A program made the translations under genes and the position numbers. DNA of 64,000 nucleotides from IMG/VR virus record IMGVR_UViG_2576861193_000002, one strand, 5' to 3'. The notes under the pieces were generated by a model. The model searched no databases. It had not been told where the DNA came from and was given only the letters and a program-made list of their open reading frames with translations. This document shows positions 1,152 through 57,696 of the stretch, piece after piece. Within the stretch, counting starts at the first letter, position 1; every line of letters starts with the position of its first letter. The DNA comes from a virus (Duplodnaviria > Heunggongvirae > Uroviricota > Caudoviricetes).

Positions 1152-1353
1152 AATTACCGCCACTATTGAAAAGGAAGGTGGCACTCCTACTAACTGGACA
1201 AGATATTCAAAATCTAAACTAACGAAATCAGAATGCGAAAAAATGCTCTCAGGTAAAAAAGAAGCAGGCGTTTCCAGAGAGCAGAAAGTAAAACTGATAA
1301 ATTTTAATTGCGAGAAACTTCAGTCCTCGAGAATTGCATTGTATTCAAATTAA
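1144..1353 (+). CDS. ydaC: Rac small protein YdaC/RcbA
   Basis: 69 aa MYKITATIEKEGG...; internal start of ORF 1072..1353. Confidence 0.7.
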   Translation: MYKITATIEKEGGTPTNWTRYSKSKLTKSECEKMLSGKKEAGVSREQKVKLINFNCEKLQSSRIALYSN

Positions 1354-5632: not shown

Positions 5633-5662
5633 CAAAAAAAAGCCGACTCATCAAAGTCGGCG
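5633..5662 (-). terminator. rho-independent terminator downstream of zntB (possibly bidirectional)
   Basis: GCCGACTcatcaaaGTCGGC hairpin flanked by A-run on plus strand, T-run on minus. Confidence 0.5.
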
Positions 5663-5850
5663 TCGTACGAATCAATTGTGCTATGCAGTAATTCAAAAAA
5701 GGAAGTAAGACAATATGGAGCGCAACGCCCATCGCTTGACGTTGCATTCACCTGCAAGAGAGATATTGCCCTGAATGGGTAGAGAGTTTATTGACTTCGC
5801 TCAAACTTTGCGGCGTTTTTGTATACAGACAGCCGGAAAAATTGCTTTTG

Positions 5851-6855
<1,005 letters not shown>

Positions 6856-7209: not shown

Positions 7210-7232
7210 TTTGGTCACTATTTGGTACACAA
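7210..7232. repeat. 23-bp direct repeat TTTGGTCACTATTTGGTACACAA (candidate integrase arm-type site)
   Basis: 22/23 identical copy at 62798-62820 just upstream of int start. Confidence 0.45.
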
Positions 7233-9478: not shown

Positions 9479-9612
9479 CGCAATGACTCCATTTTGTTAA
9501 TTAACGGAATAATTCTACCATTTTGTGATCTGTGTTGCATTTTATGCTTATACAAAATGTATATTATAATAAACAAAGCAACAAATACACACAATCTGAG
9601 TGGGGTGTACTA

Positions 9613-9831
9613 ATGAAAATGGTAACAATTATCGCTGTTGCGGCTATTCTGGTTGGTTGCGCTGACACTAATCGACACAACGGTCATTGTGCAACTAGCG
9701 CATACGGTGTCTGCTATGAAAGATGGGTTGATGGTGTAATGGTTCCTGCCGGGGAAATTTGTCGGGTGTATGATGGCACTGATGGCCATAGTGGCAAGAC
9801 TAGAGATTGCGGAAGTAAGGAGTGGTATTAA
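9613..9831 (+). CDS. small Cys-rich lipoprotein (candidate superinfection-exclusion / receptor-masking protein)
   Basis: Internal Met of ORF 9532..9831: MKMVTIIAVAAILVGC lipobox; 6 Cys in mature part; opposite strand to adjacent tail fibre. Confidence 0.55.
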   Translation: MKMVTIIAVAAILVGCADTNRHNGHCATSAYGVCYERWVDGVMVPAGEICRVYDGTDGHSGKTRDCGSKEWY

Positions 9832-10766
9832 TGGGTGCAGGTATATATATTGGGCTGAATGACGGACGCCCTGCAATGGAAATAACAAGCGGGTTGCGTG
9901 CGTTCTCACACGCTGGAGATTTCAATATTCAAAAGGCCGGGTTTTTGCAAAGTTTTTCCATAAAGGATTTAACTGGCGGAGATAAGTTTTTAATCCCAAA
10001 GGCAGGCGCTTACGCGTTTGAGCTTGACCGGGGCGTTGAAACATATTTTATATCAGGCTTTAGTGCTTCTGGTGGCACGGCAAGGATTTCAATTAGTGGT
10101 GAGAACGCATATTCTGATAGGATCACTAATTTTAGCGGTAGCGTGTTTGAGATAGCAAAGGCGTCTACTGGTGAGGGTATATTAGTTGCAGATAGCACAG
10201 GTTTTGCATCGATAACGACTAACGATACATTGATGTCATGTTTATGGGTTGGAAGTGTTAGCTTTACTGGGTCTTACACTATGCCAGTTGCTGGCGTTCC
10301 TTTCGGTAACTGGAGCAATAGCGGAGTTTCAGTTGAGTTTGACGGAAACAATAAATTGATCTGTACAAACACAAACACCTCTTCCACTGGTGACACATAT
10401 GGATCTGTGGCGATGAATTTGGCTATTTTTAGCAAATCACCGCCATCACCTGGCGACGGAATAACCATCATCAATAAAAATAATCAATGCGTGTTTTCAA
10501 CAAAACAAAGGCCATTGGTTGTTAAGGGATTTATAACGTTATCTAATAGTTATCAGAATATTGGTGACGCATTCTTCCCAATATTGAGATGCGGCTTTAA
10601 TACCAGAGCCATTAAAGCATACAAGGAGCTAAGATACAAAGGCATTATGATGTACAATGGGCAGGTGAAAAGCGGAACAGGATCAAGGATTGTCAGGTAT
10701 GAAATAGGTAACAGGCCGGATTTCTGTATAGGTATGAAGCTACCTTATTTGCCAGCAATTTATTAA
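9831..10766 (+). CDS. hypothetical Gly/Ser/Thr-rich beta protein, translationally coupled to lipoprotein
   Basis: AAGGAG RBS, ATG overlapping upstream stop (TAATG); 311 aa; no recognised motif. Confidence 0.5.
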   Translation: MGAGIYIGLNDGRPAMEITSGLRAFSHAGDFNIQKAGFLQSFSIKDLTGGDKFLIPKAGAYAFELDRGVETYFISGFSASGGTARISISGENAYSDRITNFSGSVFEIAKASTGEGILVADSTGFASITTNDTLMSCLWVGSVSFTGSYTMPVAGVPFGNWSNSGVSVEFDGNNKLICTNTNTSSTGDTYGSVAMNLAIFSKSPPSPGDGITIINKNNQCVFSTKQRPLVVKGFITLSNSYQNIGDAFFPILRCGFNTRAIKAYKELRYKGIMMYNGQVKSGTGSRIVRYEIGNRPDFCIGMKLPYLPAIY

Positions 10767-18525: not shown

Positions 18526-18554
18526 TTGATAGCGCTTTTTACAATATGTATATT
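18526..18554 (+). promoter_or_regulatory. sigma70-like promoter for plus-strand moron cassette
   Basis: TTGATA-17 bp-TATATT; overlaps palindrome TACAATATgtATATTGTA. Confidence 0.4.
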
Positions 18555-18570: not shown

Positions 18571-18756
18571 ATGGTTAACAAAATGGCGCGGAGGTGTGAG
18601 ATGGTTGATAAGGTGTGGAGGTTGAAGGTATTCCTGGCGGATGGCAGGGAAATGACTGTAGCTCTGTATAAGGATGAAGGCGAGGCACTTACTGACGCGC
18701 TTTTACTCGCTGAAGACGAACGCGTTTTGGGGTACAGGATCGAACCCGTCAAATGA
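18571..18756 (+). CDS. moron hypothetical protein
   Basis: Internal Met of ORF 18526..18756; alternative start 18583. Confidence 0.4.
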   Translation: MVNKMARRCEMVDKVWRLKVFLADGREMTVALYKDEGEALTDALLLAEDERVLGYRIEPVK

Positions 18757-18768
18757 GGGTTTAACAAA

Positions 18769-19119
18769 ATGCAAAAATACAGCTTAGATGTGTGGACTGA
18801 TAAATGTGAATGGGAATGCATGGGCCTATTTGACACATATGCTGCGGCGCGTGATGAAGGTCGCGAATTACTTCTCTGTTGGTCTAACGCTCGTGATTTT
18901 GATATTACTCCGGTCCAAGTACCGGATAAGGTGGAAGAGATGAACCCTAAAGATATTGATGTTAGCTTCAATGTTAACTTTGCTGACTCTATGGATCAGT
19001 CTTGCCCTGGTGAAATACACGCAAAAGGTTTCCCCGCTGACGATCCAGAAGCAAAACGCGAATACGAAAAAGCGGCAAAAGATTTCTGTATCGACAATTT
19101 GTCTGCGTTCGATAAATAA
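18769..19119 (+). CDS. moron hypothetical protein (116 aa, acidic)
   Basis: ORF with GAGGG RBS; no recognised domain. Confidence 0.5.
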   Translation: MQKYSLDVWTDKCEWECMGLFDTYAAARDEGRELLLCWSNARDFDITPVQVPDKVEEMNPKDIDVSFNVNFADSMDQSCPGEIHAKGFPADDPEAKREYEKAAKDFCIDNLSAFDK

Positions 19120-19128
19120 GGCGGCAAC

Positions 19129-19377
19129 ATGGGGCGGCGCAATCACGGTGATTATGTGTACACGTTGAAACAGGCCGCCCGCCTCATCGGTTATCATGAG
19201 CACGAATTTATTGATTTGCTGATCGAGCGCGGGATTTTGTATCAGGTTTGTTTAACGCTGTACCCGAAAGCTAAGTACCTACAAGAAAAGTTATTCATCA
19301 TTATGACGGATGAAAACCAGGTCAATCACTCATTCGTCACTGATAAAGGCGTTAATTATCTGCGTGATAACTTATAG
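19129..19377 (+). CDS. moron hypothetical protein, possible HTH
   Basis: 82 aa; YTLKQAARLIGYHEHEFIDLLIERGIL helix-turn-helix-like. Confidence 0.45.
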   Translation: MGRRNHGDYVYTLKQAARLIGYHEHEFIDLLIERGILYQVCLTLYPKAKYLQEKLFIIMTDENQVNHSFVTDKGVNYLRDNL

Positions 19378-19530: not shown

Positions 19531-19560
19531 AAACCCCGCACGAAGCGGGGTTGTTTTTAT
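19531..19560. terminator. bidirectional rho-independent terminator closing moron cassette
   Basis: AAAAACCCCGCacgaaGCGGGGTTGTTTTTAT: GC hairpin with A-run 5' and T-run 3'. Confidence 0.6.
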
Positions 19561-20181: not shown

Positions 20182-20276
20182 AATTATAACCAGTTTACAA
20201 AATGGCTTCACATAAGGCGTGACAAGATGTATATAGTAAGCAAGAAGAAAAAGCAGTACCGACAAAGGGGGGCAAT

Positions 20277-20432
20277 ATGGAACGCTATGTGGTTGTGATG
20301 CTGAACAAAGCATTCGAACAGGTGGAAGTTGCGATTGTGAAGGGCTTTGATGATGCATTCAAATACGGTCAATTTATGATGAATGCGAAGGAAAATGAGT
20401 ACCGTGATTTCTTCCTAAAAGTAGTCAACTGA
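20277..20432 (+). CDS. small hypothetical protein (51 aa)
   Basis: AAGGGGGG RBS then ATG; MERYVVVMLNKAFEQ...; coordinates approximate. Confidence 0.3.
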   Translation: MERYVVVMLNKAFEQVEVAIVKGFDDAFKYGQFMMNAKENEYRDFFLKVVN

Positions 20433-20452
20433 TTGATTGCGTGGGGTGAGTT

Positions 20453-20707
20453 ATGAAATTGGTAATGATTGGCAAAAACCTGAAAGCTCAGAAAAACGCG
20501 CCGGAACATGTAGTTAAAAAAGCAAAGGAACTTTTGAACGCGTTTTTAAACAAGAATGCGTCACCCAAAAAATTGAAAGACGGTTACGGCTACGCCTTCC
20601 GCGCCAATTTAGACTGGCGAGTCTATAGCCAGGATCTGAAGGAGTGGGTGATTGTTGAACACCATAAATTCAATGAATTGTCTGGCGTTCGCGGTTGCCA
20701 TAAGTAA
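20453..20707 (+). CDS. hypothetical basic protein (84 aa)
   Basis: GGGGTGAG RBS; MKLVMIGKNLKAQKNAPEHVVKKAKELLNAF... Confidence 0.5.
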   Translation: MKLVMIGKNLKAQKNAPEHVVKKAKELLNAFLNKNASPKKLKDGYGYAFRANLDWRVYSQDLKEWVIVEHHKFNELSGVRGCHK

Positions 20708-20794
20708 GGCGGGATATGGATGACGATAAATTCACCCGGCGGGAGATCTGGAATATTTAGTTGGTGATTTTCGTGAGGGGATATATCTCGCGGA

Positions 20795-21754
20795 ATGGTC
20801 GGATATAAAATGGGTGTGATTATGGCGCGAAAAATGACACATGAAGAACATATTGCAGATATAGCAAATGTCAATCCTCGTGTTGATATTTTAGGAGAAA
20901 TTACAGGCTGCAATGATAAGGTGTCGTGTCGTTGCAGAGTTTGTAACCACAAATGGCGTACTACGCCGCACAGCCTTAAGGCTGGCAGGGGCTGCCCCGA
21001 ATGTAAAAGAACAAAGATAGCACGAATAAAACAACTATCACATAACGATCATGTTGCTGCAATTGCTAATGTTAATCCATTTGTTGAAGTGCTAGAAAAA
21101 ATTGTTAATGTAAAGAAAAAGATCGCATGTCGTTGTAATAATTGCAAAAACATATGGATGACTACGCCAAATGATCTCAAAAACGGTCACGGCTGTCCGA
21201 AATGCTCTGGCGTAGCGAAGCTGTCACATGAAGAGCAGATTGCAGCTATTGCGAAAGTTAACCAAAATGTTGATGTAATAGGCAATATTGTTAATGACAA
21301 AACAAAAGTATCATGCCGCTGCAAGGCTTGCGGTCATGTGTGGTCGGCTACGCCTAACGACCTTAAAAATGGGCGCGGCTGCCCGAAATGCGCGAAACGA
21401 GGGTTTTTATCCCACGAACACGGAAAACTTTACATCATGGTTGATGATCTTGAAGTGCCAACAATGATGAAAATCGGCGTGAGCGTTAAGGAGAACGAGC
21501 GAAGAAATAAAGTATTAAAAAGCGCACATAAAGCAGGTGTCAGAATCCCTGATTTGTATGTCGTGAAAACGTGGGTGGGGCCAACTGAAAAAGTACAAGA
21601 ATTAGAAAGCACGATGCATAAGGCTTTTAGCAATTATAAAATTAACTTCCCTGTAAAATTTGATGGCAGTAATGAATTTTTCTACTACAGGCCGGAAGTA
21701 TTCAGCATGGTAGAAAGTACATACAGTGATATTGTAAATAAAAATGCGGCATGA
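20795..21754 (+). CDS. triple zinc-ribbon + T5orf172 (GIY-YIG-like) domain protein
   Basis: Three ~57-aa repeats each with CRCxxC...GxGCPxC; C-terminus GKLYIMV..MKIGVS..ERRNKVL...ESTMHKAF...NEFF matches T5orf172 pattern. Confidence 0.6.
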   Translation: MVGYKMGVIMARKMTHEEHIADIANVNPRVDILGEITGCNDKVSCRCRVCNHKWRTTPHSLKAGRGCPECKRTKIARIKQLSHNDHVAAIANVNPFVEVLEKIVNVKKKIACRCNNCKNIWMTTPNDLKNGHGCPKCSGVAKLSHEEQIAAIAKVNQNVDVIGNIVNDKTKVSCRCKACGHVWSATPNDLKNGRGCPKCAKRGFLSHEHGKLYIMVDDLEVPTMMKIGVSVKENERRNKVLKSAHKAGVRIPDLYVVKTWVGPTEKVQELESTMHKAFSNYKINFPVKFDGSNEFFYYRPEVFSMVESTYSDIVNKNAA

Positions 21755-21794: not shown

Positions 21795-24002
21795 TTATCT
21801 TTTTCGTGGCTGTATAATCCCCCCGGGGCGCGTGCTCTGCTCCCTCACAACACCCATAGCAACCTTCTTCATCGTCTCTTGCAGTTTGGCGCTGTCCTGC
21901 TCGGTCCATCCGTTCTCGGCTGTTATGTTGATGGTAACAGGCATGTTGATGCCGCCACCGCCGCCAATGTCGCGATTTGGTATTACCCTGCCGTTGTCAC
22001 CCGGAATCATGTACTGCTCGCCGTTTCGAGATTGGAAGATCTCTGGCTTGCCGTGCTCGCCAACCCTATAAAGATTATTGCTATTAACCGCACCGCCGTT
22101 ATAACGAGCGCCAGCAAGCCCAAGCGCCTTAGCCCCAGCCACACCAGTGGCAAGACTCGTGCCCCCCACGGTCGCCGCTCCGCCCATCGTGGCAACGTTT
22201 GCCAGGTATGCAGGAGTGGCCCACGCAGATCCTAATGCAGTAGCCTCGGCTAGTGCTTTAGCTGTTGCCGCAGCGCTGGCGGCCTCACCGATCAATTGCT
22301 GTTTAACCCATTCAGCCCCCATTTGAACAAGTGTACCGATAACGGAGGAAAGGATTGTATTGCCAATGTTAGCCAGCGCCTGCTGCCAACTTTGAGTGCC
22401 GTTAACCAGGCCCACAAGCGCATTTGTTGCAGATCCTCCCATTGCATCAACGGTATCACCCAATAGTTTGTAGCTCATTGACTGTGCTTTATATCGCTCC
22501 CATTCAATGGAGATCATTTCTTGTGCGTGCGCTCTTTCTTGCTCCTTCATGTATTGCTCGGTAGCGCCAAGATCTTCCAGCATTTGCTTGCGTATGGTCC
22601 ATTCATTTTGCGCCTGCTGTATTGGGTCCAGCTCGCCGCGCTTCTGATCCAGTGATGAAATCATTTTGTCCCATTTTTCTTGCAGCCTATTGATCGGGTC
22701 GTTAATTTCTGCTAGAGTTTCGCGCAATTCATCACCAATTCCCTTCATTGCGCCTTTGTATTCAAGCATGGTTATTTTCCCGGCTTTAAAGGCTGCATCT
22801 ATGGCTTTTTGTGATTCAAGCGCTTTGCGCATTGCTGCTGAATCTTCGTTGTATGCATCTGAAATGCGCACACCCTGTTCCGCAAGGCGCTCGGCTTCTG
22901 ATTTGCCGGATTTTTTACCTTTGCCTTTATTACCCTTGCCACCAGGTTGAGGCTTAAATGTTATGCGACTTACACCAGCTTGCCCCGTGGGGAGAGTGGA
23001 AACAAATGGCTGTTCTCCATCGCCAAACCATCCAACCTGTTTTGCTTGAGCGCGGAACAAACTAAGCCCAGGCACTATACCCTCAAACGCCCCAGCCAAT
23101 AGCCACAATTTGTCAGTTAATGACGTGCTGTCGCTCGCCAGGGACTTAAACCAGCCGGATAATATTTGGACTTCACTAGAGATAGCTTGTATACCAGTAA
23201 CCACCAAATCGGACACGCCAAGCGTTTGATTTAGCGTGTCGATTAGCAGATCGAAGTTGTTTTTTAGCTCGTTAAATGCCTGATCTGTTGTTGTTGGCAG
23301 CTTTGCGAAGTCCTTCTCTATGTCTTCTGCGCCAGCAAGAATTGCGTTGGTAACATCCTCAGCGGTGAGCTTACCATCAAGCATTCTTGCGCGAAGTTCA
23401 CCCATCGAGATTCCCATTTGTTTGGATACGCGCCGCCACACCTCTGGCATGTTTTCAAGTACAGAGTTGTATTCTTCCGCGCGAACAATGCCGCCCGTCA
23501 GTGACTGCCCTAACTGGCGAAGTGCGTTTGACATTTCATCTGATGAGCTACCACCGATACGCCCTATTTTTTGAAGCGAGTCGGTAAGCTGCAATACCTG
23601 CTGACTTGTCGCACTGGTATCCTGAAGGCTGGCCTTCAGGCTTTCCCACAGCTTCCCGGTGCTTTGAACGCTCATCCCTGTACGATTCGATATCTGAATA
23701 ATCCCGTCAAAATTCGATTTTGCGTCAGCAATGCCACTCGACAGGCGCGTCACCCTGGCACGAAGCAGATTTACGTTATCCGCGATCTCCAGGAATTTTT
23801 TTGCAGCCATAACCATCATCCCAATGTTCACAGCTTTAGATAAATTACTTATTGTGGTGTTAAGTGACTTTACTGATTTATCGGTGCGTTTAGCGCCTTG
23901 CTCGATTTTATCAAACGAGTCTTCAGCCTTGCGTTGAGCTACAAGTAACCGTTCGGTTTTTGCGTCAACGGTATATTCGATCGTGCCTACATTTGTGGTC
24001 AT
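21795..24002 (-). CDS. tail tape measure protein
   Basis: 735 aa; alpha-helical, Gly/Ala-rich C-terminal segments; between G/T and M. Confidence 0.85.
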   Translation of the reverse strand: MTTNVGTIEYTVDAKTERLLVAQRKAEDSFDKIEQGAKRTDKSVKSLNTTISNLSKAVNIGMMVMAAKKFLEIADNVNLLRARVTRLSSGIADAKSNFDGIIQISNRTGMSVQSTGKLWESLKASLQDTSATSQQVLQLTDSLQKIGRIGGSSSDEMSNALRQLGQSLTGGIVRAEEYNSVLENMPEVWRRVSKQMGISMGELRARMLDGKLTAEDVTNAILAGAEDIEKDFAKLPTTTDQAFNELKNNFDLLIDTLNQTLGVSDLVVTGIQAISSEVQILSGWFKSLASDSTSLTDKLWLLAGAFEGIVPGLSLFRAQAKQVGWFGDGEQPFVSTLPTGQAGVSRITFKPQPGGKGNKGKGKKSGKSEAERLAEQGVRISDAYNEDSAAMRKALESQKAIDAAFKAGKITMLEYKGAMKGIGDELRETLAEINDPINRLQEKWDKMISSLDQKRGELDPIQQAQNEWTIRKQMLEDLGATEQYMKEQERAHAQEMISIEWERYKAQSMSYKLLGDTVDAMGGSATNALVGLVNGTQSWQQALANIGNTILSSVIGTLVQMGAEWVKQQLIGEAASAAATAKALAEATALGSAWATPAYLANVATMGGAATVGGTSLATGVAGAKALGLAGARYNGGAVNSNNLYRVGEHGKPEIFQSRNGEQYMIPGDNGRVIPNRDIGGGGGINMPVTINITAENGWTEQDSAKLQETMKKVAMGVVREQSTRPGGIIQPRKR

Positions 24003-24010
24003 GATTGCTA

Positions 24011-24080
24011 CTCCAGTTTTGTGATCTGTGTCTCTATTTTATACAAAATGGCTTTACTTCAGCGACTCCATTTTGTATAA
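24011..24080 (+). promoter_or_regulatory. regulatory region with perfect 12-bp inverted repeat TATACAAAATGG-N16-CCATTTTGTATA
   Basis: Upstream of plus-strand lipoprotein moron; TTTTGTGATCTGTGT box shared with 9518-9535. Confidence 0.45.
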
Positions 24081-24319
24081 GGAAGCCATAGGGAACAGTT
24101 AAGAAATCAAACAAAAACGAGGTGAATTATGAAAAGTTTAATCAACAAAATTCTGGTGGTTGCCATTGCTCTTGCAATCTGTGTGCACATGACCGTGCTT
24201 TACTGGCAAGCTCCAAATGCAATGCTCATGATGCAGATCGCAGGTCAAAAGGCGTTCATCCCTGGCTGGGGTGCGCTGGATGCTTTAATCCGCTGGTTTA
24301 TGGCTTAAAGGTGCTAATT

Positions 24320-24694
24320 ATGAAAAACGTATTAAAAGCCGCGCTGATTGGTGTTATTGCTCTGTCGCTCGCTGGGTGTGCAAGATCAACTGATTTTGTT
24401 AGGTTGGCTGATAATAAGTTGCAGGCTGGAATGACTTGCGAGCAGGTTACTAAAATCATGGGTGAGCCTCAAAGGATTGAGTATGACGGTAAGTACAGCT
24501 ATCACGTATGGTGGTCGGTAACAAGTACGGTAGGTTTTACATACATGGATGTTGAAGAGTTATCCCCTTCAAGGGTTATAGCGAAGTTTGATAATTGTAT
24601 TCTGAAAGAATGGAAAGATCGCAGCAAGGCGAAGACTGTATATGGCACAATTACTCACAGCTCACCAGGCGCTGCCGTCAAAGATTTCAATTAA
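24320..24694 (+). CDS. moron lipoprotein, possibly BamE/SmpA-OmlA-like fold
   Basis: Internal Met of ORF 24122..24694: MKNVLKAALIGVIALSLAGC lipobox; GMTCEQVTKIMGEP motif. Confidence 0.55.
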   Translation: MKNVLKAALIGVIALSLAGCARSTDFVRLADNKLQAGMTCEQVTKIMGEPQRIEYDGKYSYHVWWSVTSTVGFTYMDVEELSPSRVIAKFDNCILKEWKDRSKAKTVYGTITHSSPGAAVKDFN

Positions 24695-24700
24695 AGAAAG

Positions 24701-24727
24701 GCCCGGCTAATTCCGGGCTTTTTGTTC
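24701..24727 (+). terminator. rho-independent terminator after lipoprotein moron
   Basis: GCCCGGctaattCCGGGC + TTTTTGTTCTTT. Confidence 0.55.
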
Positions 24728-25399
24728 TTTGGATTTTTTTAGTCTTTCCAGCACCTCCATAGCCTCCCTCATTCCATCGTCATAAGCCTTTTTATCAAGC
24801 AATACATTTGGTCGTTTTTGTTTGTTTCTTGCTTCTTGCGGCGTTTTGGCGCGTACTGCGGCCCTGTATCCGGTCATTGTCATGCCCCATGCTTCTGATT
24901 CAGATAGCCCCAGGTGAGCAACGGCGGAGTAAACATATTCAAGGATGTCGAATGTTGGCTTGTACTCGCCTTCCTGGGTTGTGACCGTGTCTTCTTCTGG
25001 ACCGTCACCAATTAAACCGTGATACATACAGTGTTGCGCCAGTGTGATAACGTCGCTGGTGGGCATCAACCCAGGTTTTAGTCTCAACTTACCCGAAGGA
25101 GTGAAGCTGCATTCGCCCAATAACGGGCCTATTTCGTCCTCTGAGCAACATTTCAGGACGTGGATGGACGTTTGCACTAACTCACCATAACAACGCGCCA
25201 TAATGCGATTGCGGAGGTCTGGATCCGTTGGCAAACGCTGTGGGTATTTACCACCGTGCACAGTTGCGAAGTATTCAACTAATTCCCTGTCACTGCCGAC
25301 CTTAGCCATTGCAGCAAAGCAGGGGTTAAACACATACCGCCTGCCATCAACCACAACCGCAAATTGTCCTGTTCGAACATGGATCATAACTGTCACCAT
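24707..25399 (-). CDS. tail assembly chaperone (G/GT-like)
   Basis: 230 aa; position between major tail and tape measure genes; basic C-terminus. Confidence 0.5.
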   Translation of the reverse strand: MVTVMIHVRTGQFAVVVDGRRYVFNPCFAAMAKVGSDRELVEYFATVHGGKYPQRLPTDPDLRNRIMARCYGELVQTSIHVLKCCSEDEIGPLLGECSFTPSGKLRLKPGLMPTSDVITLAQHCMYHGLIGDGPEEDTVTTQEGEYKPTFDILEYVYSAVAHLGLSESEAWGMTMTGYRAAVRAKTPQEARNKQKRPNVLLDKKAYDDGMREAMEVLERLKKSKEQKARN

Positions 25400-25440
25400 A
25401 AAATAAAGGGGCCAAATGGCCCCGATGTTAATATTTACTG

Positions 25441-25917
25441 TTACACTGACGGAACGTCACCTACCGTGACCTTGCCAGCGCTTTCGCATTCAATGGACCA
25501 GGTGGACACATCATCGTTAGGGTCTTCTTCTTTGAATGAAGTGCAAAGGAACGGACCCTCAGTTACGTCAACCGGGGAAACAAGTTTAAGCCACACATAA
25601 GGTTGTGATCCGGTAGTTTCACCGGGGCTGACAACGTGGCGCTTCAGTTCTTTTTGGTTGTGGATTGCTTCGGTGCGGGATACGCCGTCACCAGAGAAAG
25701 AAACAGATTTGTAAGTTACCAATGATTCTTTCGTGTAGTCTGCTGATTTGTCAGCGGTGGCGTCTGCGGTTTCCCATTCTACGGAAAGCGATTTACCACG
25801 CATCATGCCTAACGCTTTATATGCTTCGTCATTAGGTTTCGCATTAGGGCAAGCGATAGCAAAGAATACAGCCACGTCGCGGCCCAAGAATGCGCCTTTT
25901 TCGCAAGTCTGAGACAT
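25441..25917 (-). CDS. major tail protein
   Basis: 158 aa; position upstream of chaperone/tape measure. Confidence 0.6.
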   Translation of the reverse strand: MSQTCEKGAFLGRDVAVFFAIACPNAKPNDEAYKALGMMRGKSLSVEWETADATADKSADYTKESLVTYKSVSFSGDGVSRTEAIHNQKELKRHVVSPGETTGSQPYVWLKLVSPVDVTEGPFLCTSFKEEDPNDDVSTWSIECESAGKVTVGDVPSV

Positions 25918-25929
25918 GTTTGTTACCTC

Positions 25930-26316
25930 TTATCTGGATATAATGGTTTGGAAAGCTACGGTAAAAATAAAGCGCCCTTCTCTCGTCTGCATTGCAGGAA
26001 TAGCGCCAACTGGCTTCATGTGTGTAATTTTATCAGTTTTATACTCTGTTATCATACTTTGCCGTATTGCGTCGGCGAGATCTTCCACTTCACTGATATT
26101 TGCGTCATTGCGCGCTGAAATAACCAGGATGCGGAAGTAGTCACGGGTTACCGCTTCTTCACCAGCCGCGCCGCCGTTTTGCTGTATGACAATATATCTG
26201 CTGTTATTCGAATTGGATCGCTCATTCCAGAAACGGGCCTGCAAAATATAACCTTCGTCGTACCCGTGGGATTTAATCCAATCCCTTATTTCGTCGTATA
26301 CTTCGCTGCGTTTCAT
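25930..26316 (-). CDS. tail terminator / tail completion protein
   Basis: 128 aa; synteny. Confidence 0.5.
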   Translation of the reverse strand: MKRSEVYDEIRDWIKSHGYDEGYILQARFWNERSNSNNSRYIVIQQNGGAAGEEAVTRDYFRILVISARNDANISEVEDLADAIRQSMITEYKTDKITHMKPVGAIPAMQTREGRFIFTVAFQTIISR

Positions 26317-43379: not shown

Positions 43380-43458
43380 TATACAAAATGGATACATCAG
43401 AACAAGGTGAATAGCGCCATTATGTGATCCACATCACGCAATGACGCCATTTTGTAAA
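43380..43458. promoter_or_regulatory. intergenic regulatory region with TATACAAAATGG / CCATTTTGTAAA and TGTGATccacATCAC palindrome
   Basis: 12-mer shared with 24039, 24067, 50996. Confidence 0.4.
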
Positions 43459-44761: not shown

Positions 44762-45146
44762 AATTCAAATCAAGCCGAGTTGAAATACAACCACATTGAG
44801 GATTAAGAGCAGTGAACTGTTTTTTCTTTTGCTCTTCCTCATGATCGTTTAATATCTGCTCAGCTTTTAGTGCGCTGTAGCTAATCAAATCAACCAGACT
44901 ATCTGTTGGGTCGCTCCCATTGACCAAAATGGCCTCTAAACGCGCCTCCTTGAGACAAATCAACAGATCCCATACATCAAGTGGGGTTAAATTTGTCCCC
45001 TTTTTAGCGTTGTAAATAGTGGCTATTTTTGGCGCTGACTTTTCCTCTTTTCTGTCGTACCCGTTTTGTTTACCCCTTTGCTCTATTGTTTCCGCTGCAA
45101 GTCGTAATAAATCTGCCGCACTAGTCATTATCTTCACCTCTTGCAT
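44700..45146 (-). CDS. hypothetical protein
   Basis: 148 aa ORF. Confidence 0.4.
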   Translation of the reverse strand: MQEVKIMTSAADLLRLAAETIEQRGKQNGYDRKEEKSAPKIATIYNAKKGTNLTPLDVWDLLICLKEARLEAILVNGSDPTDSLVDLISYSALKAEQILNDHEEEQKKKQFTALNPQCGCISTRLDLNFDRSEAIRDKRYDPNEKGDN

Positions 45147-46616: not shown

Positions 46617-46925
46617 TTAAGCCTCGAATAATGCGTAGTCGAATTTGCCCAAATATCTTTCAAGACTGACTATCTCAATGCCATCAGAGCACCGCTTCCA
46701 CACAGACACCTGGTTTTCATTTTCCCGGAAGTGCATATTAGAAAGAACTTCATCGGCTGGATAGCTTTTCCCGGCGACGTAGGCATCGCTACCTACGCCG
46801 CCCTCAACGCAATAAAGCATTAATTCGCGAGCCATCTTGCTTTCCTCAGTGCTGTAAACCTTTGATTTCAGTTTACAAAACGGATACGCAATCACAACAC
46901 AAAATGTATATTTATGTGATCGCAA
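46617..46925 (-). CDS. hypothetical protein
   Basis: 102 aa ORF. Confidence 0.4.
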   Translation of the reverse strand: MRSHKYTFCVVIAYPFCKLKSKVYSTEESKMARELMLYCVEGGVGSDAYVAGKSYPADEVLSNMHFRENENQVSVWKRCSDGIEIVSLERYLGKFDYALFEA

Positions 46926-50176: not shown

Positions 50177-50325
50177 TCTTTGATCTCCTTCGCTGTTAGC
50201 ACTACATACAAGGCTTTATTTGCGGCGCTCCACATTTCGGCATCGTGAAGCATTTCCGCTACCGCAAGTTTGAATTGAAGCGCCTCAATGACCATAATGT
50301 CACCTCCGATTATTTACATTTTGTA

Positions 50326-50965: not shown

Positions 50966-50994
50966 AATATACGCCACGTAAAACATCGAGTCAA
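50966..50994 (-). promoter_or_regulatory. PL-like early promoter
   Basis: Minus strand TTGACT-17 bp-TATATT; CCATTTTGTATA motif abuts -35. Confidence 0.45.
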
Positions 50995-51087
50995 TCCATT
51001 TTGTATACTTTTTTAAAATATTTTATATGACATTGATATTTAAACAATAAATAACGTTTTCTGTTTACGTTTTGGTGTTTTCCAGGC

Positions 51088-51117: not shown

Positions 51118-51765
51118 TTATGGCAGGTTTACGATCTTCGCATCCACTACCACGCCTAAGATTTTTGATTCTGGATTCATAGGGATCGGCGGATACAGCG
51201 GATTCAGCGAACGCAAAAGTTTTCTACCTCCATCAATAATCAACTGTTTAAACGTCGGTATCTGCCCTTCCTCCAATTGGGCTATAACCAGTTTTCCGTC
51301 AATAGCTGGCGCGTGCGGATCGACAAGTATCATCGTCCCAGCTGGTATACTCAATCCTTGCGGCGCGTTCATTGATTCGCCTTTAGCTACCAGCCAATAA
51401 CTATCATCTGAACAAATAACGCTAGTAGTAACGTGTGGTAATGTTGATCGCCTTGCATCTTCCATATTGTTTACTACATCCTTCCAGTCAACAACCGGGT
51501 AACTGCCTAAATCACGCGGTGGCGCTCCAGGCAACGTGTTAGAAACAGAATCATCAATGACCATTCCATCATGTGTGACAGTGAACTGCCGACGCCCAAG
51601 CGCCCGCATAATCCGCGCAATGTCTTCAAGATTTGGCTCGCGGCGACCGTTAAGCCAGTGTGACAAGCCGCCTTTTGTGATCCCCATGAGATCTGCCAAT
51701 GAGTCCTGACTCATGCCCTGCGCCCGCATGAGTTGTTTTGCTAAGTCATACCATTTTGTTTTCAT
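51118..51765 (-). CDS. CI-like repressor (HTH + S24 LexA-like autopeptidase)
   Basis: 215 aa; N-terminal HTH; C-terminal S24 domain with GESM and catalytic Lys region. Confidence 0.85.
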   Translation of the reverse strand: MKTKWYDLAKQLMRAQGMSQDSLADLMGITKGGLSHWLNGRREPNLEDIARIMRALGRRQFTVTHDGMVIDDSVSNTLPGAPPRDLGSYPVVDWKDVVNNMEDARRSTLPHVTTSVICSDDSYWLVAKGESMNAPQGLSIPAGTMILVDPHAPAIDGKLVIAQLEEGQIPTFKQLIIDGGRKLLRSLNPLYPPIPMNPESKILGVVVDAKIVNLP

Positions 51766-51834
51766 GTCGCTACCCTATAATCTAAAAAATTTTGATGCAA
51801 GTCACAAAATGTAATTTTCAATCCTTGACCTGTT

Positions 51835-55760: not shown

Positions 55761-55841
55761 AGCCGTATAACCACGCAATTTATGTCGTCGTGGCGTCAAT
55801 TTCCTGAATGAATATACATTCAGTAAACCGGAGAATATACA

Positions 55842-56525
55842 ATGAGTGACTTAATGGTTTTTGATGCTGTTAAGATGAATAGTCTTGAAATTGCAGAATT
55901 AACGGGAAGTGATCACAAGGATATTAAACGGAGTATTTACAGACTGATTAAGAAGGGAATAATTCAAAATTCGCCAATGGCGAAAGTTGAGAATAAACAA
56001 TCACTTAGCCCTAATAGATTTTCTGATGTTTACGTCTTTGAGGGCGAGCAAGGAAAACGAGATAGTATCATTGTCGTTGCTCAAAACTGCCCTGAATTTA
56101 CGGCGCGGCTTGTTGATCGCTGGCAGGAACTTGAAAAACGGGTACAGCAAAACTCTCCTGCAATTCCTCAAACATTAAGCGAAGCGTTGCGCCTTGCTGC
56201 CGATCTTGCTGAGGAAAAGGAACGGCTTGCGCTGGTTAATAAGGAACTTGCGCCAAAAGCGGCTGTATGTGACGCGATAGTCAAAAACGATATGCACCGC
56301 ACGGCTTCAGAGGTAGCTAAACCGCTGGGAATGTCAGCCGTAAAATTAAACAGAAAACTTTCGGCTGTTGGTGTTTACGATCTTCGCTGTCGCCGCCGTG
56401 TATTCAGTCAGTGGTTTATTGATGAGGGGTACGGTGAAATGAGGGTAACTCACGATGGATATGAGCAGGCTGTATTCACTGCTAAAGGACAAGTATGGAT
56501 CACTGAGCTTTTAACTTGTAACTAA
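55842..56525 (+). CDS. antirepressor-like protein (Rha/Ant N-terminal + KilAC-like C-terminal)
   Basis: 227 aa; domain architecture typical of phage antirepressors. Confidence 0.6.
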   Translation: MSDLMVFDAVKMNSLEIAELTGSDHKDIKRSIYRLIKKGIIQNSPMAKVENKQSLSPNRFSDVYVFEGEQGKRDSIIVVAQNCPEFTARLVDRWQELEKRVQQNSPAIPQTLSEALRLAADLAEEKERLALVNKELAPKAAVCDAIVKNDMHRTASEVAKPLGMSAVKLNRKLSAVGVYDLRCRRRVFSQWFIDEGYGEMRVTHDGYEQAVFTAKGQVWITELLTCN

Positions 56526-56559
56526 GTATACAATTTGTTATTCGCGAGGAAATGACACT

Positions 56560-57678
56560 ATGTCACAAAGAAAGATCAGCGATGAACAGCTAATCGCTGA
56601 ATATAACAACGGTTTAACGTACAAGCAGATCGCTGAAAAATATGGCATGTCAAAACGCAACGTCGAACGCCTGGGCGCAAAACTGGCGAAACGCGGTTTA
56701 TTATCAACGCGCCGCGCTCCTGGTTTTGGTGTCAATGGCGAGTCGTTGCTAGTCGATAAGAACGGCAATGTGATCATGCGTTGGATTAAAACAGCCCGTG
56801 ACCGCGACGAAATGGAACAGTTAATGGAAGCGGCCCGCGACGCTTTCACGGATGAAATACCACGCGCGGAGGCTGTGCCAGTGCCTGAAATTGATTTTCA
56901 AAAAAGCCTGGCCCTTTATCCGGTGTTTGATCTGCATATCGGGGCTCTTGCCCATAAAGCTGAATGCGGTGAGAGCTACGACACTGGGATCGCTGAACGC
57001 GTGCTAAATAACTTCTTTGATTATGCTGTTGGCGCTGCTCCTATGAGTGAAAAAGCAGTCTTACTTCTCGGTGGCGACCTGCTTCACACTGACGGATTGT
57101 TACCAGTGACGCCATCAAGCAATCACGTTCTTGATTGCGATTCGCGCTACGCAAAACTTGTTTATGTGGCGATCCGGTCTGTCCGGCGGGCGGTCGGAAA
57201 GATGTTGCTAAATCATAAGGATGTGGAAATCCAGGTGTTATCAGGGAATCATGACCAGTCTGGTATGATTTGGCTACGTGCGGCGCTGGCGGCTTTTTAC
57301 GAAGATGAACCGCGCGTGACGGTTGATGTGTCACCTGCTATTGTCCACCACACACAGTACGGCAAAACATTCCTTGCTTACCACCACGGGCACACTATCA
57401 AAAAGCCGGAAAATTTATTGTCTGCTTGCGTCTCTGACTGGCGGGAAGACTTTGGCAAGTCTGCTGCGGTTTACGCTCATTGCGGGCACTGGCACCATCA
57501 ACGGCTAATCGAATCATCGTTAGGCGTTGTTGAGTATCACGGCACGTTAGCGGGTAAAGACGCTTACTCAACTAATGGCGGCTGGCGGTCGCGGCGTCTG
57601 GCAGCGGTTATTATTTACAGCCAGGATCATGGGGAGATCGGGCGCTTTGTTTATTACCCTGAATTTTCCATTTTGTAA
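56560..57678 (+). CDS. calcineurin-like metallophosphoesterase with N-terminal HTH
   Basis: 372 aa; FDLHIG, GGDLLHTD, GNHD, GHWHH motifs; N-terminal LTYKQIAEKYGMSKRNVERL. Confidence 0.55.
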   Translation: MSQRKISDEQLIAEYNNGLTYKQIAEKYGMSKRNVERLGAKLAKRGLLSTRRAPGFGVNGESLLVDKNGNVIMRWIKTARDRDEMEQLMEAARDAFTDEIPRAEAVPVPEIDFQKSLALYPVFDLHIGALAHKAECGESYDTGIAERVLNNFFDYAVGAAPMSEKAVLLLGGDLLHTDGLLPVTPSSNHVLDCDSRYAKLVYVAIRSVRRAVGKMLLNHKDVEIQVLSGNHDQSGMIWLRAALAAFYEDEPRVTVDVSPAIVHHTQYGKTFLAYHHGHTIKKPENLLSACVSDWREDFGKSAAVYAHCGHWHHQRLIESSLGVVEYHGTLAGKDAYSTNGGWRSRRLAAVIIYSQDHGEIGRFVYYPEFSIL

Positions 57679-57696
57679 ACATGAGGTAATGACATA

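What the first reader, a model, noticed from the sequence alone, without database searches (positions are those of the whole stretch)
24011..24080. A 12-bp motif TATACAAAATGG / CCATTTTGTATA recurs at the early promoter region and upstream of moron cassettes
Perfect copies occur at 24039, 24067 (reverse complement, forming a 12-bp inverted repeat with a 16-bp spacer), 43380 and 50996 (abutting the -35 of the PL-like promoter). Near-copies occur at 9489, 9518, 9549, 20194, 43447 and around 51836. A given 12-mer is expected far less than once in 64 kb. This suggests one DNA-binding protein, possibly the repressor, co-regulates the early promoter and the moron cassettes.
Basis: seen in the sequence. 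Interest (0 to 1): 0.55.

Follow-up and report, generated by a model that had tools for sequence, protein, structure and literature searches.

The report
Repressor operator sites scattered across prophage
The repeated 12-base motif is the conserved core of a 15-bp operator, most likely bound by this E. coli prophage's lambda-CI-like repressor; it lies at both early promoters and at about a dozen other gene boundaries, including the reverse-strand cassettes inside the tail operon.

Summary
TATACAAAATGG occurs exactly four times (24040+, 24068-, 43380+, 50996-) against 0.02 expected, and its 9-mer core is the most over-represented 9-mer in the window. It is nearly absent from about 68 kb of host DNA.

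The window holds a 55.6-kb prophage of the mEpimmI group (mEp013/mEp021 relatives), whose promoters and operators are not described in the one group paper I could read.

The 12-mer is not a complete site. It is the strong half-site (TATAC), the A/T centre (AAAAT) and the start of a weak half-site of a 15-bp pseudo-dyad, TATAC-AAAAT-G(G/T)AT(A/T).

More distant homologues of the repressor (Rep), with similar recognition helices, have clear TATAC-N5-GTATA dyads in their cro-repressor gaps. A cousin phage whose Rep has an identical recognition helix but is 56% identical overall keeps the sites at the same functional places, with little or no similarity in the DNA between them.

The inverted repeat at 24040-24079 is two operators 25 bp apart. 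They bracket the -35 and cover the -10 of the promoter of a reverse-strand cassette. The main early promoter (50966-51007) and cassette c (20194-20235) have the same layout.

Binding by Rep is inferred, not shown. I judge this a new variant of a known kind, of moderate interest.

The parts
24040..24054 (.). It is the distal operator (about -49 to -35) of the cassette-d promoter.
   Evidence: (13.8 bits with a PWM trained on other phages); conserved in 34 sequence variants
24065..24079 (.). Operator ACTCCATTTTGTATA, right arm of the repeat. It starts 25 bp after the first and covers the -10 of the cassette-d promoter.
   Evidence: (14.6 bits)
24011..24025 (.). Degenerate third site CTCCAGTTTTGTGAT. 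In relatives it is a good operator, CATACAAAATGTGAT, 29 bp from the next one. Here a 1-nt insertion spoils it.
24053..24081 (+). Predicted sigma-70 promoter of reverse-strand cassette d (genes 24129-24694): -35 TTTACT (24053-24058), 17-bp spacer, -10 TATAAG (24076-24081).
   Evidence: read from the sequence; prediction only, and the -10 lacks T at -7
50993..51007 (.). Distal operator (TATACAAAATGGATT on the minus strand) of the main early promoter that drives the N-like gene. It overlaps the -35 by 2 bp.
   Evidence: (17.5 bits); positions 1-11 invariant in 36 unique sequences while neighbours vary
50968..50982 (.). Proximal operator (TTTACGTGGCGTATA on the minus strand) with a GC-rich centre. 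It starts 25 bp from the distal one and covers the spacer and the first bases of the -10.
   Evidence: the matching position in the cousin L211 is ATCACAAGGCGTATA
50966..50994 (-). Predicted main early promoter: -35 TTGACT (50989-50994), 17-bp spacer, -10 TATATT (50966-50971). It drives the N-like gp17 gene (50326-50616) and the long minus-strand operon.
   Evidence: nutR1 and gp17 are described in PMC11893012
51836..51850 (.). Operator ACGCCATTCTGTAAA covering the -10 (TAAACT, 51847-51852) of the second early promoter (-35 TTGACC, 51825-51830, plus strand).
   Evidence: conserved as TTTACA(G/A/T)AATG(G/T) while the next 9 nt vary
51801..51815 (.). Operator GTCACAAAATGTAAT between the repressor gene start and the second early promoter; a candidate autoregulatory site.
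   Evidence: (11.7 bits)
51118..51765 (-). Repressor gene (Rep, 215 aa): HTH_3 plus Peptidase_S24, lambda-CI-like.
   Evidence: function of the mEp021 orthologue shown in PMC11893012
43380..43458 (.). Three sites upstream of nutR2 and ninG: TATACAAAATGGATA (43380-43394), GCGCCATTATGTGAT (43414-43428) and ACGCCATTTTGTAAA (43444-43458).
   Evidence: the same three sites with 18- and 26-bp spacers in cousin L211, first spacer 9/18 identical, second unalignable; rc boxA GCTCTTTAA at 43354
46872..46910 (.). Two sites in the gap upstream of the gp26-like gene: TTTACAAAACGGATA (46872-46886) and AACACAAAATGTATA (46896-46910).
   Evidence: (15.0 and 16.0 bits); both present in L211
50313..50327 (.). 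Site TTTACATTTTGTATT overlapping the stop codon of the N-like gene, in a 30-nt gap. L211 has the perfect dyad TATACAAAACGTATA here.
   Evidence: (17.2 bits)
20194..20235 (+). Cassette-c promoter-operator module: TTTACAAAATGGCTT (20194-20208), -35 TTCACA (20207-20212), GTGACAAGATGTATA (20219-20233), -10 TATATA (20230-20235). Same geometry as the main early promoter.
   Evidence: conserved in mEp021 and mEp515
18538..18552 (.). Dyad TTTACAATATGTATA at the cassette-b junction, covering the -10 of a predicted TTGATA-17-TATATT promoter (18526-18554, plus strand).
   Evidence: 15.3 bits; 17.2 bits
9486..9563 (.). Three sites at the cassette-a (lipoprotein) / tail-fibre junction: ACTCCATTTTGTTAA (9486-9500), CTACCATTTTGTGAT (9515-9529) and the perfect dyad TATACAAAATGTATA (9549-9563).
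   Evidence: (19.0 bits)
55813..55850 (.). Two dyads upstream of, and across the start codon of, the Rha/KilAC antirepressor gene: TATACATTCAGTAAA (55813-55827) and TATACAATGAGTGAC (55836-55850).
   Evidence: L211 has two exact 12-mers upstream of its Rha/ANT gene. These two are weaker calls, made on half-sites only.
56527..56541 (.). Site TATACAATTTGTTAT in the 34-nt gap after the antirepressor gene.
   Evidence: (14.3 bits)
57665..57679 (.). Site TTTCCATTTTGTAAA on the stop codon of the 372-aa gene, 17 nt before dnaB. There is no room for a promoter.
   Evidence: (14.5 bits)
60581..60595 (.). Site CAGGCATTTTGTATA in the gap upstream of the gp03-like 218-aa gene.

Best explanation
The 12-mer is the conserved core of a 15-bp pseudo-palindromic operator, TATAC-AAAAT-G(G/T)AT(A/T). 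It consists of a strong half-site, an A/T-rich centre and a weak half-site, as in the lambda operators.

I infer that the sites are bound by dimers of the prophage's lambda-CI-like repressor, Rep (51118-51765). About 25 candidate sites lie at about 13 intergenic loci of this mEpimmI-type prophage.

At the main early promoter, and at the promoters of reverse-strand cassettes c and d, two operators lie 25 bp apart. One abuts or overlaps the -35 and the other covers the -10. Bound Rep would therefore exclude RNA polymerase. At that spacing the two dimers probably bind cooperatively.

The inverted repeat at 24040-24079 is one such operator pair. At the second early promoter an operator covers the -10, and another lies next to the repressor gene, where it may serve autoregulation.

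Other sites lie in short gaps inside the early operons. These include the gap after the N-like gene and those before the antirepressor, dnaB, gp26-like, ninG and gp03-like genes. There Rep would silence internal promoters or block read-through transcription.

Shown here:
- the motif statistics;
- the intergenic placement;
- the 15-bp dyad in homologous immunity regions;
- conservation of the sites in a distant cousin.

Inferred:
- that Rep is the binder;
- that binding represses;
- that binding is cooperative;
- every promoter position.
For: 1. Enrichment and placement.
2. Rep is HTH_3 plus S24 and matches lambda CI (3bdn, E = 2e-18).
3. More distant Rep homologues have similar recognition helices. 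They are P0009 in Enterobacter and P0013 in Citrobacter. In their cro-rep gaps and just after rep they carry 15-bp dyads. Examples are TATACGTTTCGTATT, TATACATTTTGTGTC, AATACAGTTCGTATG, TATACATTTTGTATT, GATACGTTTTGTATA and AATACGTTATGTATT.
4. A PWM trained only on sites from other phages gives 12 window hits at 13 bits or more, against 1.4 +/- 1.2 in shuffles. Ten of the 12 are intergenic and one more is on a stop codon. All but one of the 12 (41146, inside the Q gene) belong to this site family. A smaller training set gave the same top hits.
5. Cousin phage L211 is only 64-72% identical in nucleotide patches. Its Rep matches 18 of 18 residues in the helix-3 region but about 56% elsewhere. It keeps sites at the main early promoter (two, 25 bp apart), in the cro-rep gap (three), after the N-like gene, in the gp26-like gap (two) and upstream of ninG. 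The ninG sites are three, with spacers of 18 and 26 bp against 18 and 25 here; the first spacer is only half identical and the second could not be aligned. It also has two sites upstream of its antirepressor gene.
6. The same operator / -35 / operator-with--10 layout occurs at three promoters.
7. In 27-36 unique homologous sequences the sites are conserved islands between variable flanks.
8. Sites cluster in twos and threes, 23-35 bp apart.
9. Plasmid-expressed Rep021 blocks all tested phages of the group (PMC11893012). This fits shared operators.
Against: - There are no binding or expression data.
- All 41 IMG/VR relatives and the sequenced phages are homoimmune. So the decisive covariation test, a changed recognition helix with changed sites, could not be run.
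- The weak half-site is very degenerate, and scoring the two half-sites alone is not above background (39 hits against 34 in shuffles).
- Position 12 is mostly G, where dyad symmetry predicts T. Recognition may therefore be more asymmetric than in lambda.
- Several sites lie in gaps too short for a promoter (50313, 57665, 56527). Simple promoter occlusion cannot explain all of them.
- The lipoprotein cassette is proposed in PMC11893012 to mediate superinfection exclusion. On this model Rep would repress it in lysogens, unless it acts during lytic growth.
- A Cro-type protein could use the same sites. One is present in L211, but none is recognisable in this window.
Confidence: 0.65

Rival explanations
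1. The motif is a promoter element: the -10 region (CCATTTTG-TAWAMN) of a family of duplicated sigma-70 promoters. Perhaps they need an unknown activator that reads the CCATTTTG part. The inverted repeat would then be two back-to-back divergent promoters.
For: In the CCATTTTGTAWA orientation, 11 of about 14 sites point along the downstream genes. One is the -10 of the second early promoter (TTGACC-16-TAAACT). The copy at 43380 lies 20 nt upstream of the nutR2 boxA. TATACT and TAAACT are acceptable -10 hexamers.
Against: T at -7 is present in only 5 of 10 candidate hexamers, and the -35 matches are mostly 2-3 of 6 (read). The motif's position relative to better hexamers varies. It is in the spacer at 9549 and 20194(-), acts as the -35 at 18575, and lies 17 nt from an ATG at 57668. 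Three sites point antisense. This reading does not explain the 15-bp dyads in the immunity regions of other phages, the clustering, or the operator with a GC-rich centre at the main early promoter. The two roles are not exclusive: operators overlapping -10 elements will look promoter-like.
Confidence: 0.12
2. The sites are bound by a different protein: another phage regulator (a Cro analogue, Rha/antirepressor, or the 372-aa HTH protein) or a host factor, not Rep.
For: Nothing here ties Rep physically to the sites. In lambda, Cro shares the CI operators. L211 has a cro-like HTH_3 gene.
Against: The 81-aa winged-helix first gene of the second early operon is absent from prophage KKa019, which keeps the sites. 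No cro homologue is found in the window. The Rha/HNH genes vary between relatives. The sites travel with Rep homologues into unrelated prophage backgrounds in Citrobacter and Enterobacter. From memory, no E. coli regulator consensus I know fits (IHF, Fis, CRP, LexA, TyrR, OmpR, HprR/CusR). The motif is rare in host DNA.
Confidence: 0.12
3. The inverted repeat acts as an RNA or DNA hairpin, for example a processing or stabilising stem in the read-through late transcript upstream of the tape-measure gene.
For: The predicted 12-13 bp stem has -14.5 kcal/mol as RNA (z = -2.8) and -9.3 kcal/mol as DNA (z = -3.9). There is one compensatory-looking double change: KKa019 has TATACAAAACGT...CCGTTTTGTATA, with a one-arm intermediate in L158.
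Against: Most copies are single or arranged as direct repeats, so a stem cannot explain the family. The loop-proximal pair does not covary: G-A and T-C combinations are common. The A-to-G variant CCGTTTTGT also occurs at unpaired sites (46872; L211 19388), so the double change is within the tolerated variation of the site. No Rfam family matches.
Confidence: 0.04
4. The repeats are boundary or linker sequences that promote recombination, so that accessory cassettes can be swapped between related phages, with no regulatory role.
For: In 11 E. coli genomes only 24020-24110 is conserved, while the flanking cargo genes and the tape-measure gene differ.
Against: The 12-15 bp shared between different loci is too short for homologous exchange, and repeats inside one genome would risk deletions. 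The sites also lie at the two early promoters, where nothing is swapped. Site positions are conserved while the DNA between them is not, which is the reverse of what a recombination linker predicts. Conservation of the whole 85-bp promoter-operator module explains equally well.
Confidence: 0.05

Closest known systems
Lambda CI repressor with the OR and OL operators
   Same: The repressor has the same two-domain build (HTH plus S24) and matches lambda CI by sequence. The operators are short pseudo-dyads with one well-conserved half and one degenerate half. They occur in tandem about 2.4 helical turns apart. They overlap the -35 and -10 of two early promoters that flank the repressor gene, and each promoter is followed by a nut site (PMC11893012). 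The lambda operator sequences and their ~24-bp spacing are quoted from my own knowledge.
   Different: The site is 15 bp rather than 17 bp, with an A/T-rich centre. There are two sites rather than three at each early promoter in this window. About 20 further sites lie outside the immunity region, including in the late (tail) region. No cro gene is recognisable in this window. According to PMC11893012, Rep lacks the Ala-Gly cleavage site and lysogens are not UV-inducible.
Stoperators of Cluster A mycobacteriophages (L5/Bxb1 type; PMC9283540, PMC6550527)
   Same: Many copies of one short repressor site are spread over the prophage, mostly in short intergenic gaps. One lies at the early lytic promoter. 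Several sites here sit in gaps with no room for a promoter (50313, 56527, 57665). There is an orientation bias relative to transcription.
   Different: Those repressors are monomers that read a truly asymmetric 13-14 bp site with two domains. Here the repressor is of the dimeric CI/LexA type and the site is a pseudo-dyad. Blocking of elongation is untested here. The host and the phage lineage are unrelated.
Phage P1 C1 repressor and its dispersed operators (from my own knowledge; not checked with the tools)
   Same: One repressor controls many separate operons through more than a dozen operators spread over the genome. Some are paired or overlapping, and they cover promoters, including that of an antirepressor system.
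   Different: The P1 operator is a 17-bp asymmetric sequence, and C1 is unrelated to CI/LexA-type proteins. P1 is a plasmid prophage.
Phage T5 llp lipoprotein gene (from my own knowledge; an analogy for the cassettes only)
   Same: A small lipoprotein gene lies next to the receptor-binding tail genes and is transcribed from the opposite strand. It is expressed early in lytic growth to block the receptor. That is what Rep-controlled expression of cassette a (9610-9831, Phage_lipoprotein) would give.
   Different: T5 is virulent and has no repressor. When the cassettes here are expressed is unknown.

Membership tests
Lambda-CI-type repressor/operator immunity system | A repressor with an N-terminal Cro/CI-type HTH and a C-terminal S24 (LexA-like) domain, encoded between two divergent early promoters | tested here: met
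   Pfam HTH_3 (5e-13) and Peptidase_S24 (4e-18); lambda repressor 3bdn, E = 2e-18; predicted promoters on both sides
Lambda-CI-type repressor/operator immunity system | Operators are 14-17 bp sites with partial dyad symmetry | tested here: met
   Perfect dyad TATACAAAATGTATA at 9549 and near-perfect at 43380, 18538 and 50313. Clear TATAC-N5-GTATA dyads in the immunity regions of Rep homologues. However, half-site symmetry alone is not above background.
Lambda-CI-type repressor/operator immunity system | Operators overlap the -35 and -10 of the early lytic promoters | tested here: met
   50993-51007 overlaps the -35 and 50968-50982 covers the -10 of TTGACT-17-TATATT. 51836-51850 covers the -10 of TTGACC-16-TAAACT. 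The promoters are predictions, not mapped starts.
Lambda-CI-type repressor/operator immunity system | Adjacent operators spaced so that dimers can bind cooperatively | tested here: inconclusive
   A 25-bp start-to-start spacing occurs at three promoters here and at the main early promoter of L211. Other clusters are 23-35 bp apart. Cooperativity itself cannot be tested with these tools.
Lambda-CI-type repressor/operator immunity system | The repressor binds the operators and represses transcription | not testable with these tools
   Only indirect evidence: sites co-occur with Rep homologues in unrelated prophages, and the recognition helix is identical in the cousin that keeps the sites.
Lambda-CI-type repressor/operator immunity system | Operators are confined to the immunity region (OL and OR) | tested here: not met
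   Sites occur at about 11 further loci, from 9486 to 60595. This is the main departure from the lambda pattern.
Stoperator system (Cluster A mycobacteriophages) | Many repressor sites dispersed in short intergenic gaps of both arms of the genome | tested here: met
   10 of the 12 strongest hits are intergenic in a prophage that is 91% coding, and they lie in both early operons and in the tail region.
Stoperator system (Cluster A mycobacteriophages) | A truly asymmetric site read by a monomeric two-domain repressor | tested here: not met
   The site is a pseudo-dyad, and the repressor belongs to the dimeric CI/S24 family. The system may work like stoperators at some sites, but it is not a member of that family.
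Stoperator system (Cluster A mycobacteriophages) | A single orientation relative to transcription, and a block to elongation | tested here: inconclusive
   About 11 of 14 sites have the strong half-site on the same side relative to transcription. Blocking of elongation is not testable here.
Sigma-70 -10 element (rival reading) | Conserved T at -12, A at -11 and T at -7, at a fixed distance from a -35 element and a start site | tested here: not met
   T at -7 in 5 of 10 candidate hexamers; -35 matches mostly 2-3 of 6; variable register

The most novel reading that the evidence does not exclude
A lambda-CI-family repressor in a common E. coli gut prophage group runs a genome-wide operator network of about 25 sites. 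The network does three things beyond silencing the two early promoters.
1. It controls the four reverse-strand accessory cassettes embedded in the tail operon. These would then be early-lytic units, not lysogen-expressed morons.
2. It controls an antirepressor gene.
3. It acts as a transcription roadblock at promoter-less gaps, a Gram-negative, dimeric counterpart of mycobacteriophage stoperators.

Having so many sites would also lock the recognition helix. It is 18 of 18 identical in a cousin whose repressor is otherwise 56% identical. That would explain why this whole phage group forms a single immunity group, while lambdoid phages from the same samples split into 19 (PMC11893012).
Probability: 0.3. 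Interest if true: 0.72.

Novelty: new variant of a known kind. Interest (0 to 1): 0.58.

Why it matters
The mEpimmI phages are reported to be as common in human faeces as lambdoid phages (PMC11893012). That paper, the only paper on the group I could read, defines no promoters or operators.

This analysis proposes the operator sequence of their repressor. It shows that the same promoter-operator module is reused for accessory cassettes inside the tail operon, and it lists about 25 candidate sites that can be tested directly with the existing pRep021 plasmid.

If confirmed, three things would follow.
- It would extend the lambda model of two operator regions to a dispersed operator network in an E. 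coli siphophage.
- It would change how the reverse-strand cassettes are read. The toxin-like, exclusion and lipoprotein genes would be repressor-controlled rather than lysogen-expressed.
- It would offer a mechanistic reason for the group's single immunity type.

Tried and rejected
1. Reading the 12-mer as a -35 element (T[AT]TACA): no -10 hexamer at 16-18 bp at any site. Rejected.
2. Reading it as a -10 or extended -10 element: see the rival explanation. The TG is out of register and T at -7 is often missing.
3. Searching for a dyad immediately around the 12-mer at 17- or 19-bp width: nothing found. The correct 15-bp frame became clear only from the homologous immunity regions.
4. An UP-element reading of the copy at -48 to -37 of the main early promoter: the invariant C5 and G11 and the copies elsewhere argue for base-specific recognition.
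5. Host factors, from memory (IHF, Fis, CRP, LexA, TyrR, ArcA, OmpR, CusR/HprR, MarA-type): no convincing fit.
6. Short ORFs starting at the ATG inside the motif: 1-17 codons, with no conservation.
7. The 81-aa winged-helix protein (52072-52317) as the binder: it is absent from KKa019, which keeps the sites.
8. A scan of viral contigs for the 14-mer CCATTTTGTATAAG: only chance matches. Uninformative, and a wasted scan.
9. A genome-contig scan with the gp25-like protein: no relatives found.
10. A covariation test with Rep among 41 IMG/VR loci: all are homoimmune, so the test was not possible.
11. A half-site-only dyad score: not above shuffles.
12. A literature search for the motif string: only unrelated primers. 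The Arch Virol 2023 paper on Gp17 is not held.
13. Rfam: nothing in the prophage.
Full report
**1. What the window is**

Window positions about 7,210 to 62,820 are a prophage. It is flanked by the direct repeat ATTTGGTACACAA at 7220 and 62808. The host flanks carry ttcA/dbpA/zntB-type genes and the sRNAs RalA and FnrS.

The prophage belongs to the mEpimmI group of Nus-dependent, non-lambdoid E. coli phages. It is 91% identical to mEp013 over 22064-26000, and other mEp phages match more weakly. The group is described in PMC11893012.

The layout follows.
- The CI-like repressor, Rep, is at 51118-51765 (minus strand).
- A strong predicted promoter, TTGACT-17-TATATT (50966-50994, minus strand), drives the N-like gp17 gene. 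Its operon continues through erf, ssb, dam, ninG, rusA and Q, then lysis, head and tail genes, down to the tail fibre at 7289-9478.
- A second predicted early promoter, TTGACC-16-TAAACT (51825-51852, plus strand), drives the replication genes.
- Four plus-strand cassettes interrupt the minus-strand tail operon:
  - a, 9610-10766: lipoprotein plus DUF6453;
  - b, about 18571-19377: includes a KilAC-like gene;
  - c, 20277-21754: ParE-like and T5orf172/CapR genes;
  - d, 24129-24694: small membrane or lipoprotein-like genes.

PMC11893012 defines no promoters or operators. It notes only that Rep021 'may' recognise operators different from those of lambda.

**2. The observation**

The 12-mer TATACAAAATGG occurs exactly at 24040(+), 24068(-), 43380(+) and 50996(-). 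Shuffles expect 0.02 copies.

With up to two mismatches there are 25 matches against 8.6 expected. ACAAAATGG is the most over-represented 9-mer in the window.

All nine copies within one mismatch lie between genes or on a stop codon. They recur at the homologous places in mEp021, mEp013 and mEp515.

About 68 kb of host DNA holds no exact copy and one single-mismatch copy. The 55.8-kb prophage holds 4 and 9.

**3. First attempts at an explanation**

The motif has sharp 12-bp borders and no obvious symmetry. I first tested promoter readings.

In the CCATTTTGTAWA orientation most copies point along the downstream genes. One copy is the -10 region of the second early promoter. Another lies 20 nt upstream of the nutR2 boxA.

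As -10 elements, however, they are poor. T at -7 is present in only 5 of 10, the -35 matches are mostly weak, and the register against better hexamers is variable. Three copies point antisense.

Three features argued for a protein-binding site instead.
- Sites cluster in twos and threes.
- The arrangement motif-N24-TATA recurs at the main early promoter, cassette c and both directions of the cassette-d repeat.
- In 27-36 unique homologous sequences the copies are conserved islands between variable flanks.

The 81-aa winged-helix protein encoded first in the second early operon is not the binder. Prophage KKa019 lacks it and keeps the sites.

**4. The decisive comparison**

All 41 IMG/VR relatives retrieved with a neighbouring protein are homoimmune. 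Their Rep N-terminal domains are 96-100% identical. A covariation test within the group was therefore impossible.

A search with Rep itself found more distant homologues, aligned.

P0008 is 56% identical overall. Its N-terminal arm, MKTKW, is identical, and the helix-3 region matches in 18 of 18 residues. It sits in a cousin phage (L211-L213) that shares gene order but is only 64-72% identical in nucleotide patches. That phage has a true cro-like gene 124 bp from rep.

In L211 the motif is kept at the same functional places:
- two sites 25 bp apart at the main early promoter, TATACAAAATGGTAT and ATCACAAGGCGTATA, the second running into the -10 TATAGT;
- three sites in the cro-rep gap;
- the perfect dyad TATACAAAACGTATA just after the N-like gene;
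- two sites in the gp26-like gap;
- three sites upstream of ninG, with spacers of 18 and 26 bp against 18 and 25 bp in the window. The first spacer is only 9/18 identical and the second could not be aligned;
- two exact 12-mers upstream of its Rha/ANT antirepressor gene.

Still more distant homologues lie in unrelated prophage backgrounds. They are P0009 in Enterobacter and P0013 in Citrobacter, with helices TKGAVSHWLNARRE and TQGGLGHWLNGRRE. Their cro-rep gaps and the DNA just after rep hold plain 15-bp dyads. Examples are TATACGTTTCGTATT, TATACATTTTGTGTC, AATACAGTTCGTATG, TATACATTTTGTATT, GATACGTTTTGTATA and AATACGTTATGTATT.

It comprises a strong half-site, an A/T-rich centre and the beginning of a weak half-site. 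From my own knowledge, lambda's operators look the same way: the half TATCACCGC is well conserved and the other half is degenerate.

In the window, 9549 is a perfect dyad (TATACAAAATGTATA). Sites 43380, 18538 and 50313 are near-perfect.

**5. Independent scoring**

A matrix trained only on sites from the other phages (L211, L214, L216) gives 12 window hits at 13 bits or more. Shuffles give 1.4 +/- 1.2, with a maximum of 4 in 40.

Ten of the 12 hits are intergenic and one more is on a stop codon, in a prophage that is 91.4% coding. All but one of the 12 (41146, inside the Q gene) belong to this site family. A smaller training set gave the same top hits.

A score using only the two 5-bp half-sites is not above background. 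The signal therefore rests on the strong half-site plus the centre, and the weak half-site adds little.

**6. Anatomy at the reported locus and elsewhere**

All coordinates were checked.

At 24011-24081:
- a degenerate site at 24011-24025. In relatives it is a good operator, CATACAAAATGTGAT;
- an operator at 24040-24054;
- the -35 TTTACT at 24053-24058;
- an operator at 24065-24079, which runs into the -10 TATAAG at 24076-24081;
- the cassette-d genes, starting at 24129.

The main early promoter has the same geometry: an operator at 50993-51007 overlapping the -35 by 2 bp, and an operator at 50968-50982 covering the -10.

Cassette c has it too: 20194-20208, -35 TTCACA, 20219-20233, -10 TATATA.

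So the '12-bp inverted repeat with a 16-bp spacer' is an operator pair 25 bp apart. The two strong half-sites face outwards.

Further sites:
- 51836-51850, over the -10 of the second early promoter;
- 51801-51815, next to the rep start;
- three at 43380-43458;
- two at 46872-46910;
- 50313-50327;
- 18538-18552, over the -10 of the predicted cassette-b promoter;
- three at 9486-9563;
- 57665-57679;
- 60581-60595;
- 56527-41, and with less certainty 55813-27 and 55836-50, around the Rha/KilAC antirepressor gene.

**7. Mechanism**

Inferred: Rep dimers occupy these sites in the lysogen. Where two sites bracket a promoter, they exclude RNA polymerase, probably with cooperative binding at the 25-bp spacing, as with lambda CI.

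Where a site lies in a gap too short for a promoter (50313, 56527, 57665), it could block read-through. That would resemble the stoperators of Cluster A mycobacteriophages (PMC9283540, PMC6550527), but this system is not a member of that family. Here the site is a pseudo-dyad and the repressor is of the CI/S24 type.

One consequence is that cassettes a-d would be off in the lysogen and switched on together with the early genes. That would make them early-lytic accessory units rather than classical morons. For the lipoprotein this resembles T5 llp (my own knowledge).

A second consequence is that many sites per genome should hold the recognition helix fixed. This fits the identical helix in the 56%-identical cousin, and the single immunity group reported for all these phages (PMC11893012).

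**8. Rivals and limits**

The rivals are a promoter-element reading, a different binding protein, a hairpin and a recombination linker. They are weighed in the rival section.

The hairpin has one compensatory-looking double change, in KKa019 with an intermediate in L158. But the same A-to-G variant occurs at unpaired sites, and the loop-proximal pair does not covary.

The main limits:
- No binding or expression data exist.
- Promoter positions are predictions.
- The weak half-site is hardly distinguishable from background.
- The sites around the antirepressor gene rest on half-site matches only.

**9. Verdict**

The finding is best filed as a new variant of a known kind: a lambda-CI-type repressor/operator system whose operators are dispersed over the prophage, with the promoter-operator module reused for reverse-strand cassettes in the tail operon. 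Interest is moderate.

Noticed in passing
window 50957-50965 and 50986-50994: A 9-bp inverted repeat, TTGACTCGA ... TCGAGTCAA, with a 20-bp spacer. One arm is the -35 of the main early promoter and the other lies around its start site. It is kept, with partly matching changes, in relatives (TTGACTCGG/GCGAGTCAA; TTGACTCTG/GCGAATCAA). It is not part of the operator family and is unexplained; it may be a site for a second regulator.
   Followed up: partly
window 51874-51889: A conserved palindrome, CTTGC-N6-GCAAG (here GTTGCAATGATGCAAG), about 25-40 nt downstream of the second early promoter and upstream of the nutL boxA (51931). Its arms are conserved in 27 unique sequences. It could be a small RNA stem or another protein site.
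   Followed up: no
window 9515-9530, 24011-24026, 43414-43429: Three operators whose weak half is GTGAT are followed by C, making a GATC Dam site (…TTTTGTGATC, …TTATGTGATC). The phage encodes its own Dam methylase (45121-45660). Methylation could modulate binding at these sites.
   Followed up: no
window 52072-52317; locus L144 49719-50000; locus L211 9649-9876: The window has no recognisable cro gene. The first gene of the second early operon is an 81-aa winged-helix protein. It is missing from prophage KKa019, where the replication gene comes first. The cousin L211 has a true HTH_3 cro-like gene.
   Followed up: partly
window 19532-19552 and 24696-24723: GC-rich hairpins with T-runs on both strands (bidirectional terminator-like) close the reverse-strand cassettes. 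They lie between convergent cassette and tail genes. Late transcription must therefore read through them, presumably with Q (PF03589, 40682-41404).
   Followed up: no
window 57640-57680; mEp021 (L022) around 6063: The site before dnaB and 14 nt upstream of it (TTACCCTGAATTTTCCATTTTGTAAAC) are kept whether the upstream neighbour is the 372-aa gene (window, mEp013) or an inserted HNH endonuclease gene (mEp021, mEp515). The HNH insertion ends exactly at this block.
   Followed up: no
window 1150-1328 (-) and 5638-5755 (-): The host flank carries the RalA antitoxin sRNA (Rac-type remnant; 225 bits) and FnrS (135 bits). Neither is related to the finding.
   Followed up: no
window 7220-7232 and 62808-62820: The direct repeat ATTTGGTACACAA, within a longer similar stretch TTTGGTCACnATTTGGTACACAA, lies at both prophage ends. 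It is the likely att core and gives a prophage of about 55.6 kb.
   Followed up: partly
loci L002, L003 (E. coli prophages), 6001-6800: At the same cassette-d position, other E. coli prophages carry a TagO-like (type VI secretion-associated) gene behind the same 85-bp promoter-operator block. The cargo is swapped while the control module is kept.
   Followed up: partly
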